Assembly (NCBI GenBank): GCA_964016885.1
Contig: OZ024755.1
Location: forward strand, 6,634,001-6,698,000
DNA: 64,000 bases
Direction: 5' to 3'
Origin: Eledone cirrhosa
Lineage: Eukaryota
Shown: piece after piece, positions 27,148 to 27,218 of the stretch
Layout of the letters: every line of letters begins with the position of its first letter
Numbering within the stretch: the stretch's first letter is position 1
Made by a program: the position numbers and the translations under genes
The notes under the pieces: model-generated
Seen by the model: only the letters and a program-made list of their open reading frames with translations
The model's database searches: none
Told to the model about the DNA's origin: nothing

Positions 27148-27218
27148 TATTTTATCTGATGAGAACGCAGATATCATCCCATGATGATATTTGTTTTTGA
27201 AATGCGCATAATAAAATA
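27148..27218 (+). ncRNA. Type I hammerhead ribozyme with long stem II and palindromic stem III (family E)
   Basis: TATTTTAT(27148-55)-CTGATGA-16-position stem II (one mismatch, loop CCAT)-GAAA(27199-202)-ATGCGCAT palindrome-A27210-ATAAAATA. Perfect 8-bp stem I; AATAAA overlaps the cleavage site. Lies in a ~190-bp island between (TA)n tracts. Confidence 0.9.

What the first reader, a model, noticed from the sequence alone, without database searches (positions are those of the whole stretch)
27148..27218. Best-formed hammerhead: 8-bp stem I, long stem II, palindromic stem III and overlapping AATAAA
Seen: full core consensus, stem III is the palindrome ATGCGCAT, and the cleavage base A27210 is also the first base of AATAAA. 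Inference: it could cleave as a monomer or as a dimer through the palindrome, and cleavage would disrupt the poly(A) signal, coupling self-cleavage to 3'-end choice. If this lies in a sense-strand intron it could cut host pre-mRNA.
Basis: partly seen in the sequence, partly recalled or inferred. Interest (0 to 1): 0.75.

Follow-up and report, generated by a model that had tools for sequence, protein, structure and literature searches.

The report
Hammerhead ribozyme of Hydra-clade Penelope retrotransposon
This is an ordinary self-cutting-RNA motif at the tail end of a broken jumping-gene copy, one of thousands in this genome, and it is predicted to cut only when paired with a second copy, which this spot lacks.

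Summary
The hammerhead is real and as described, but it is not a locus-specific switch. The same 71 nt occur 335 times exactly, and the flanking end 6,525 times, in this 3.0-Gb genome. Longer copies show it is the pseudo-LTR ribozyme of a Penelope-like retrotransposon (RT plus GIY-YIG) carrying the Hydra-clade motifs. The window holds a 200-bp, 5'-truncated, inverted stub in (TA)n. Lineage variants keep base pairs (6 of 6), private mutations mostly break them (55 of 69). Folding supports a dimer, not a monomer, as published for this class. No partner copy and no host exon were found in the window. One lead remains: AATAAA lies 0-7 nt from the cut in 15 of 15 related clusters here, but in only 1 of 25 published Hydra-clade families; copies have no poly(A) tails, and the parent has another AATAAA upstream. 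The scan noted other Penelope-linked hammerheads elsewhere in this genome, none matching this sequence. Verdict: new member of a known kind; low interest.

The parts
27058..27102 (-). Inverted piece of the element's 3' 'tail' (the extension that ends about 134 nt downstream of the cut in long-ended copies)
   Evidence: Reverse complement aligns to the tail of the full element L049; same inverted piece in many copies
27102..27256 (+). Sense arm: last part of the retrotransposon 3' UTR / pseudo-LTR, 5'-truncated, with an internal deletion of about 55 nt before 27128; ends at the 'short' end about 46 nt after the cut
   Evidence: Alignment to L049 3' pLTR, 1 mismatch in 27128-27256; 59 of 100 sampled copies end here
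27148..27155 (+). Hammerhead stem I, 5' strand
27156..27162 (+). Core C3-A9 (CUGAUGA); only N7 (27160) has a common variant in the family
27163..27198 (+). Stem II, 15 pairs plus one C.U mismatch, loop 27179-27182
   Evidence: six common variants all keep pairing
27199..27201 (+). Core G12-A14
27202..27209 (+). Palindromic stem III (A15.1 to U16.1); predicted 8-bp intermolecular helix
   Evidence: intact in 63 of 76 ungapped copies
27210..27210 (+). H17 = A; predicted cleavage 3' of this base (AUA triplet)
   Evidence: hammerhead consensus applied; cleavage not tested
27210..27215 (+). AATAAA spanning the predicted scissile bond
   Evidence: present in 95 of 100 sampled copies
27211..27218 (+). 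Hammerhead stem I, 3' strand
26910..27057 (.). (TA)n-rich target, left flank
27257..27365 (.). (TA)n target, right flank

Best explanation
The motif is the type I hammerhead in the pseudo-LTR of a Hydra-clade Penelope-like retrotransposon, left here as a 200-bp truncated and inverted stub in a TA microsatellite, and it is predicted to cut only as a dimer, likely in the two-pseudo-LTR transcripts of full elements and not at this lone copy. Shown: family membership, architecture, copy number, and that lineage-level changes keep the fold. Inferred: in a full element (unit about 3.67 kb, cut to cut) the two hammerheads pair through the 8-nt palindrome, each core cutting the other strand after AUA and releasing a unit-length RNA, possibly with help from the element's protein as reported for a Poseidon element. 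Inferred: this copy arose when the element's endonuclease nicked (TA)n and reverse transcription started at the two fixed sites (+46 and about +134 from the cut) on an uncut template and stopped early, giving the sense and inverted arms. Inferred: the copy is now a passenger.
For: 335 exact copies of the 71-mer; 6,525 exact copies of the adjacent 32-mer, 0 for the reversed control. Full elements L049 and L066 show hammerhead pLTR, ATG about 210 nt after the cut, then the RT-GIY-YIG frame; L049 has the second hammerhead 3,673 nt after the first. Hydra motifs DKT, RW(I), CxCX5C, CxxC/CxH present (against PMC8557442 section 11). Common variants at paired sites keep pairing 6 of 6; rare ones keep 14 and break 55; 28 of 54 possible transitions would keep. 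Double-hammerhead fold -40.7 kcal/mol, within 0.6 of the dimer minimum (-41.3), against -15.2 per monomer. Two 3' end classes, 59 short and 41 long of 100, match the tail signature in PMC11167929.
Against: No cleavage was measured. The G.U closing pair of stem II and the all-A-U stem I may make it slow (recalled, not from a call). No clear genomic footprint of cutting: symmetric fold-back junctions fall 3 times at the cut, 3 times one base upstream and 14 times at the palindrome among the first 50 of 154 places (counted by eye). Pfam did not recognise the family's own RT or nuclease pieces; only a homolog gave a weak RVT_1 hit, E 0.0044, below cut-off, so the protein assignment rests on motifs and alignment. 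No phylogenetic tree was built. PMC11167929 found hammerhead cleavage dispensable for insertion in vitro, so the role of the cut is unsettled.
Confidence: 0.9

Rival explanations
1. In this group of families the hammerhead is built on top of the element's poly(A) signal: helix I hides AAUAAA, and dimer cleavage splits it or cuts it off, so the RNA chooses between polyadenylated mRNA and a cut or read-through transposition template. This would be a property of the parent element, not of this locus.
For: AATAAA starts 0-7 nt from the cut in 15 of 15 stem-II clusters with an 8-nt AT..AT stem III (about 7 lineages by 3' flank, grouped by eye), also where stem I has another sequence, and in 0 of 8 other clusters (one of these has ATTAAA at +4); 9 of 975 flanking 14-nt windows hold it. 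A CA followed by a U-rich tract lies about 21 nt after the hexamer here. Precedent: the Clec2 hammerhead removes a poly(A) signal (passage in PMC6765202).
Against: The clusters are related by descent and A-rich at this place (shuffle probability 0.02-0.46 per cluster). Only 1 of 25 published Hydra-clade families has AATAAA within 8 nt of the cut and 2 have ATTAAA (File S2 of PMC8557442, counted by eye). The parent 3' UTR has another AATAAA about 490 nt upstream in 12 of 12 copies and one in the tail. Only 1 of 100 copies has an A8 run within 130 nt downstream. AATAAA occurs 1.3 times per kb per strand in the window.
Confidence: 0.12
2. This particular copy has been co-opted to cut or terminate a host pre-mRNA from a sense-strand intron.
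For: The copy has an intact core, helices and AATAAA; 62 of 76 ungapped copies have an intact core, so this is common.
Against: No Pfam hit above cut-off among 200 candidate frames in the window (short exons can be missed), so no host gene is established. No second copy of the family in 64 kb; only 6 of 100 sampled places have a same-strand exact partner within 10 kb. The sequence is identical to 334 other copies, so it shows no locus-specific change.
Confidence: 0.03
3. The motif cleaves efficiently as a monomer, with the long stem II compensating for the weak stem III.
For: Stem I and stem II form with high probability in context (pair probabilities 0.58-0.99).
Against: Monomer stem III would be 2 pairs with a 4-nt loop; pair probability 0.001, active fold 2e-5. 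Single Penelope hammerheads showed no cleavage in PMC4209133, and none without protein in PMC11167929. Nearest-neighbour energies ignore Mg2+ and tertiary contacts.
Confidence: 0.05

Closest known systems
Hydra clade of Penelope-like elements, incl. Hydra-1_Obim (Craig et al. 2021, PMC8557442; sections 11 and 12, passages, and supplement parts 1-2 plus search hits read)
   Same: Single RT + C-terminal GIY-YIG frame, DKT and RW motifs, CxCX5C linker, CxxC/CxH in the nuclease, (TA)n target, sense-strand type I hammerhead near the 3' end, inverted truncated copies.
   Different: Longer unit (about 3.67 kb, 3' UTR about 1.06 kb, against generally under 3 kb); hammerhead has a 15-bp stem II and a perfect 8-nt palindrome, whereas the listed ones have 3-7 bp stem II and mostly a central 1-3 nt loop; RWI for RWK; not the listed Hydra-1_Obim ribozyme.
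Penelope-element minimal hammerheads (Cervera and de la Pena 2014, PMC4209133; parts 1-2 of 4 read)
   Same: Type I, in the pLTR, palindromic stem III, larger than usual stem II, mostly solitary truncated copies, expected to work as dimers.
   Different: No extra base between A9 and 10.1; G.U or A-U instead of G10.1-C11.1; longer stems I and II.
Poseidon element PAc of Anolis (Frangieh et al. 2024, PMC11167929; parts 1-2 of 4 read)
   Same: Two fixed 3' ends defining a tail downstream of the hammerhead; AT-rich targets; hammerhead near the pLTR-ORF junction.
   Different: Other clade; there the ORF starts inside the hammerhead, here about 210 nt after the cut; tail about 88 nt here against 30-40 nt; no activity tested here.
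Clec2 3'-UTR hammerhead (passage in review PMC6765202)
   Same: Cleavage would separate an upstream RNA from a poly(A) signal.
   Different: Clec2 is a host gene with a split, monomeric ribozyme shown to act; here a transposon motif with no evidence that the hexamer is used.
Metazoan non-LTR retrozymes (PMC7229834, search listing only; preprint 10.64898/2026.07.22.740005, part 1 of 5 read)
   Same: Type I hammerhead related to Penelope pLTRs.
   Different: Retrozymes are tandem non-coding units; this is a single truncated copy of a coding element, with no tandem repeat at the site.

Membership tests
Type I hammerhead ribozyme | Core CUGANGA / GAAA / UH with three helices, ends in stem I | tested here: met
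Type I hammerhead ribozyme | G10.1-C11.1 closing pair of stem II | tested here: not met
   G.U here; A-U in 58 of 76 copies
Type I hammerhead ribozyme | Match to an Rfam hammerhead model | tested here: not met
Type I hammerhead ribozyme | Mg2+- and core-dependent self-cleavage | not testable with these tools
   needs in vitro assay
Penelope-like element | Single frame with RT and C-terminal GIY-YIG | tested here: met
   FDI..YYSSI, MG..DS, YRDD, FLD and VYEC..YFGST..FK.R motifs in one open frame in L055, L058, L060, L065; Pfam did not call them
Penelope-like element | Pseudo-LTRs, partial tandems and inverted 5'-truncated copies | tested here: met
   L049, L066 direct upstream pLTR; L034, L060 and others inverted; 30 of 100 places have an opposite-strand partner within 5 kb
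Penelope-like element | Optional 3' tail, no poly(A) end | tested here: met
   59 short, 41 long ends; 1 of 100 with an A8 run
Penelope-like element | Hammerhead in the pLTR with palindromic stem III | tested here: met
Hydra clade | DKG changed to DKT | tested here: met
   HSDKTNN
Hydra clade | N-terminal RWK motif | tested here: inconclusive
   RRLRWI in L053 and L066, at the place where homologs have RWK/RWR
Hydra clade | CxCX5C linker; CxxC and CxH around the nuclease E and N; no CCHH | tested here: met
   CNCPVRTKC; CNLC-E...N...CLH; absence of CCHH judged by eye
Hydra clade | Insertion into (TA)n | tested here: met
Hydra clade | Placement in the RT phylogeny | not tested
   no tree built; visual match to the published alignment rows only
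Neptune / Nematis clades | CX2-5CxxC linker and CCHH motif | tested here: not met
Non-LTR retrozyme | Tandem non-coding units each with a hammerhead | tested here: not met
   single copy, no tandem unit; coding parent
Functional poly(A) signal | Transcripts polyadenylated 10-30 nt downstream | not testable with these tools
   needs RNA data

The most novel reading that the evidence does not exclude
A radiation of Penelope-type families in this genome has placed its polyadenylation signal on or just behind the hammerhead's scissile bond, so that helix I and dimer cleavage act as a switch between translatable mRNA and transposition template, giving the pLTR hammerhead a defined job. Not found in searches of the held library.
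Probability: 0.12. Interest if true: 0.55.

Novelty: new member of a known kind. Interest (0 to 1): 0.17.

Why it matters
As a locus it matters little: one of thousands of dead stubs. As a family it adds a young (about 1.8% private divergence), very abundant Hydra-clade element with near-complete copies and clear selection on its ribozyme fold. The function of Penelope hammerheads is still open in print (PMC8557442, PMC11167929); the AATAAA at the cut gives a cheap test of one candidate function, control of 3'-end formation.

Tried and rejected
Rfam: no hammerhead hit. First working label 'Neptune' rejected after reading the clade definitions. Pfam and PDB did not name the family protein. Genomic footprint of cleavage: copies whose base at H17 differs number 192 against 106 one base upstream; true junctions were 12 of the first 30 and 8 of the first 30 on my reading (script classes 14 and 10), about 77 against 28, but several use microhomology with the element's own A-rich words, and fold-backs show no excess at the cut: inconclusive. 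Host gene: 200 frames of 48 aa or more, no Pfam hit above cut-off. No RNA holder listed; contigs of run X1 showed only family variants. Sister families could not be tied to an upstream nuclease frame within the short loci. Lunse et al. 2017 was not held; known only through its citation in PMC6765202. Supplements of PMC4209133 and PMC11167929 were not read and may list related motifs. The palindrome of sister families is no independent evidence, since the scan required it.

Full report
Observation. It is the only strict hit in the window, with 0.02 expected from 50 local shuffles, and it folds better than shuffles (z -3.0). Rfam does not recognise it. Stem II closes with G.U, not the usual G-C.

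It is a repeat. The window lies in a 3.0-Gb, microsatellite-rich genome (an earlier AI note calls it octopus-type, not tested here). The 71-mer occurs 335 times exactly and the 32-mer just downstream 6,525 times, with 0 for the reversed control. A 901-bp piece of the coding region had 2,951 first-look candidates, of which 40 were scored.

The parent. [quoted passage not shown] L049 and L066 have the hammerhead repeat directly upstream of the ATG (about 210 nt after the cut); in L049 the second hammerhead follows 3,673 nt after the first. Pfam did not name these pieces; 46 unnamed homologs at 29-39% identity were found, one with a weak RVT_1 hit. Their alignment shows DKT, RW, a CxCX5C linker and CxxC/CxH around the nuclease E and N, the diagnostic set of the Hydra clade in PMC8557442 (section 11), whose members insert in (TA)n, carry canonical hammerheads and include an Octopus family with another ribozyme sequence (supplement). 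No tree was built.

This copy. 27058-27102 is an inverted piece of the tail; 27102-27256 is the sense end of the pLTR with an internal deletion, 1 mismatch from L049 over 27128-27256; both sides are (TA)n. No coding part of the element lies in the window. Among the first 100 places, 59 end about 46 nt after the cut as here, 41 carry the tail, 19 are truncated within 100 nt upstream, and 1 has an A8 run downstream; 30 have an opposite-strand partner within 5 kb and 6 a same-strand one within 10 kb (exact matches only). Two fixed ends and inverted arms are the published Penelope signature (PMC11167929; PMC8557442).

Selection on the fold. In 76 ungapped copies (of 81 not truncated, of 100), eight sites have a common second allele: N7, the one free core position; one loop base; and six stem II bases, all of which keep their pair. 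Rare differences at paired sites keep 14 and break 55. All six are one-sided transitions and about half of all transitions would keep a pair, so the chance of 6 of 6 is about 0.02. The fold was therefore likely maintained in the lineages that spread, not in the copies after insertion.

Mechanism. As a monomer, stem III is 2 pairs with a 4-nt loop; the active fold has a weight of about 2e-5. Two strands form a double hammerhead at -40.7 kcal/mol, 0.6 from the dimer minimum, with an 8-bp shared stem III. This agrees with PMC4209133, where single motifs did not cut and multimers cut weakly, and with PMC11167929, where cutting needed the element's protein and was dispensable for insertion. I infer that cutting happens between the two pLTRs of a full transcript. 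A search for a genomic trace of cut templates was inconclusive.

AATAAA. Among 224 distinct hammerheads with a self-pairing stem III in the fetched loci and the window (a sample enriched for two families), all 15 clusters with an 8-nt AT..AT stem III have AATAAA starting 0-7 nt from the cut, also where stem I differs; none of the other 8 clusters has it. Against a role: these clusters share descent and are A-rich; only 1 of 25 published Hydra-clade families has it (by eye); the parent has another AATAAA about 490 nt upstream in 12 of 12 copies; the window has 85 on the + strand; and genomic copies extend past the expected poly(A) site without tails. Searches found no paper that links a Penelope hammerhead to a poly(A) signal; the nearest is Clec2. 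I give this reading 0.12.

Host gene. 200 candidate frames gave no Pfam hit above cut-off, and no partner copy lies in the window, so cutting of a host pre-mRNA has no support, though short exons are not excluded.

Verdict. Real motif, known kind: the pLTR hammerhead of a new, abundant Hydra-clade Penelope-like family. Interest 0.17.

Noticed in passing
window 53800-53875 (-): Second hammerhead of a sister family (755 first-look candidates): same stem I, different stem II with the mismatch at the same position, stem III ATATGTAT or ATATATAT; this copy has G at H17, which should inactivate it.
   Followed up: partly
window 23035-23090 (+) and 1945-2005 (+): Two further type I hammerheads with self-pairing stem III from other families.
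   Followed up: partly
window 17591 (-), 17598 (+), 17694 (+), 14413 (-): Minimal CTGATGA...GAAAC motifs in a 96-bp two-copy repeat and inverted neighbours; likely another small Penelope-type family.
   Followed up: no
window 26708-26906: Neighbouring (TA)n-inserted repeat with a 100-nt near-perfect fold-back (26717-26819); also in L002, L004, L014, L017, L029. Possibly another inverted Penelope-type end.
   Followed up: no
G000, listing: The stem III palindrome is a hotspot for inversion junctions: 14 of the first 50 listed places fold back exactly on it.
   Followed up: partly
window 27073-27091: The tail holds a small hairpin (TTTATTGT / ACAATAAA) that gives AATAAA on both strands; 27064-27073 reads as a splice-donor-like AG|GTGAGT on the + strand of the inverted piece.
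   Followed up: no
family stem II (27163, 27167, 27170, 27173): Four of six common stem II variants are A/G opposite U; compatible with RNA editing fixed by retrotransposition, but also with simple pair-keeping transitions; direction not determined.
   Followed up: no
window 40175-40575 and 56038-56562: A 67-bp six-copy tandem array at 98% match, and a run of equally spaced short frames suggesting a 61-bp array.
   Followed up: no
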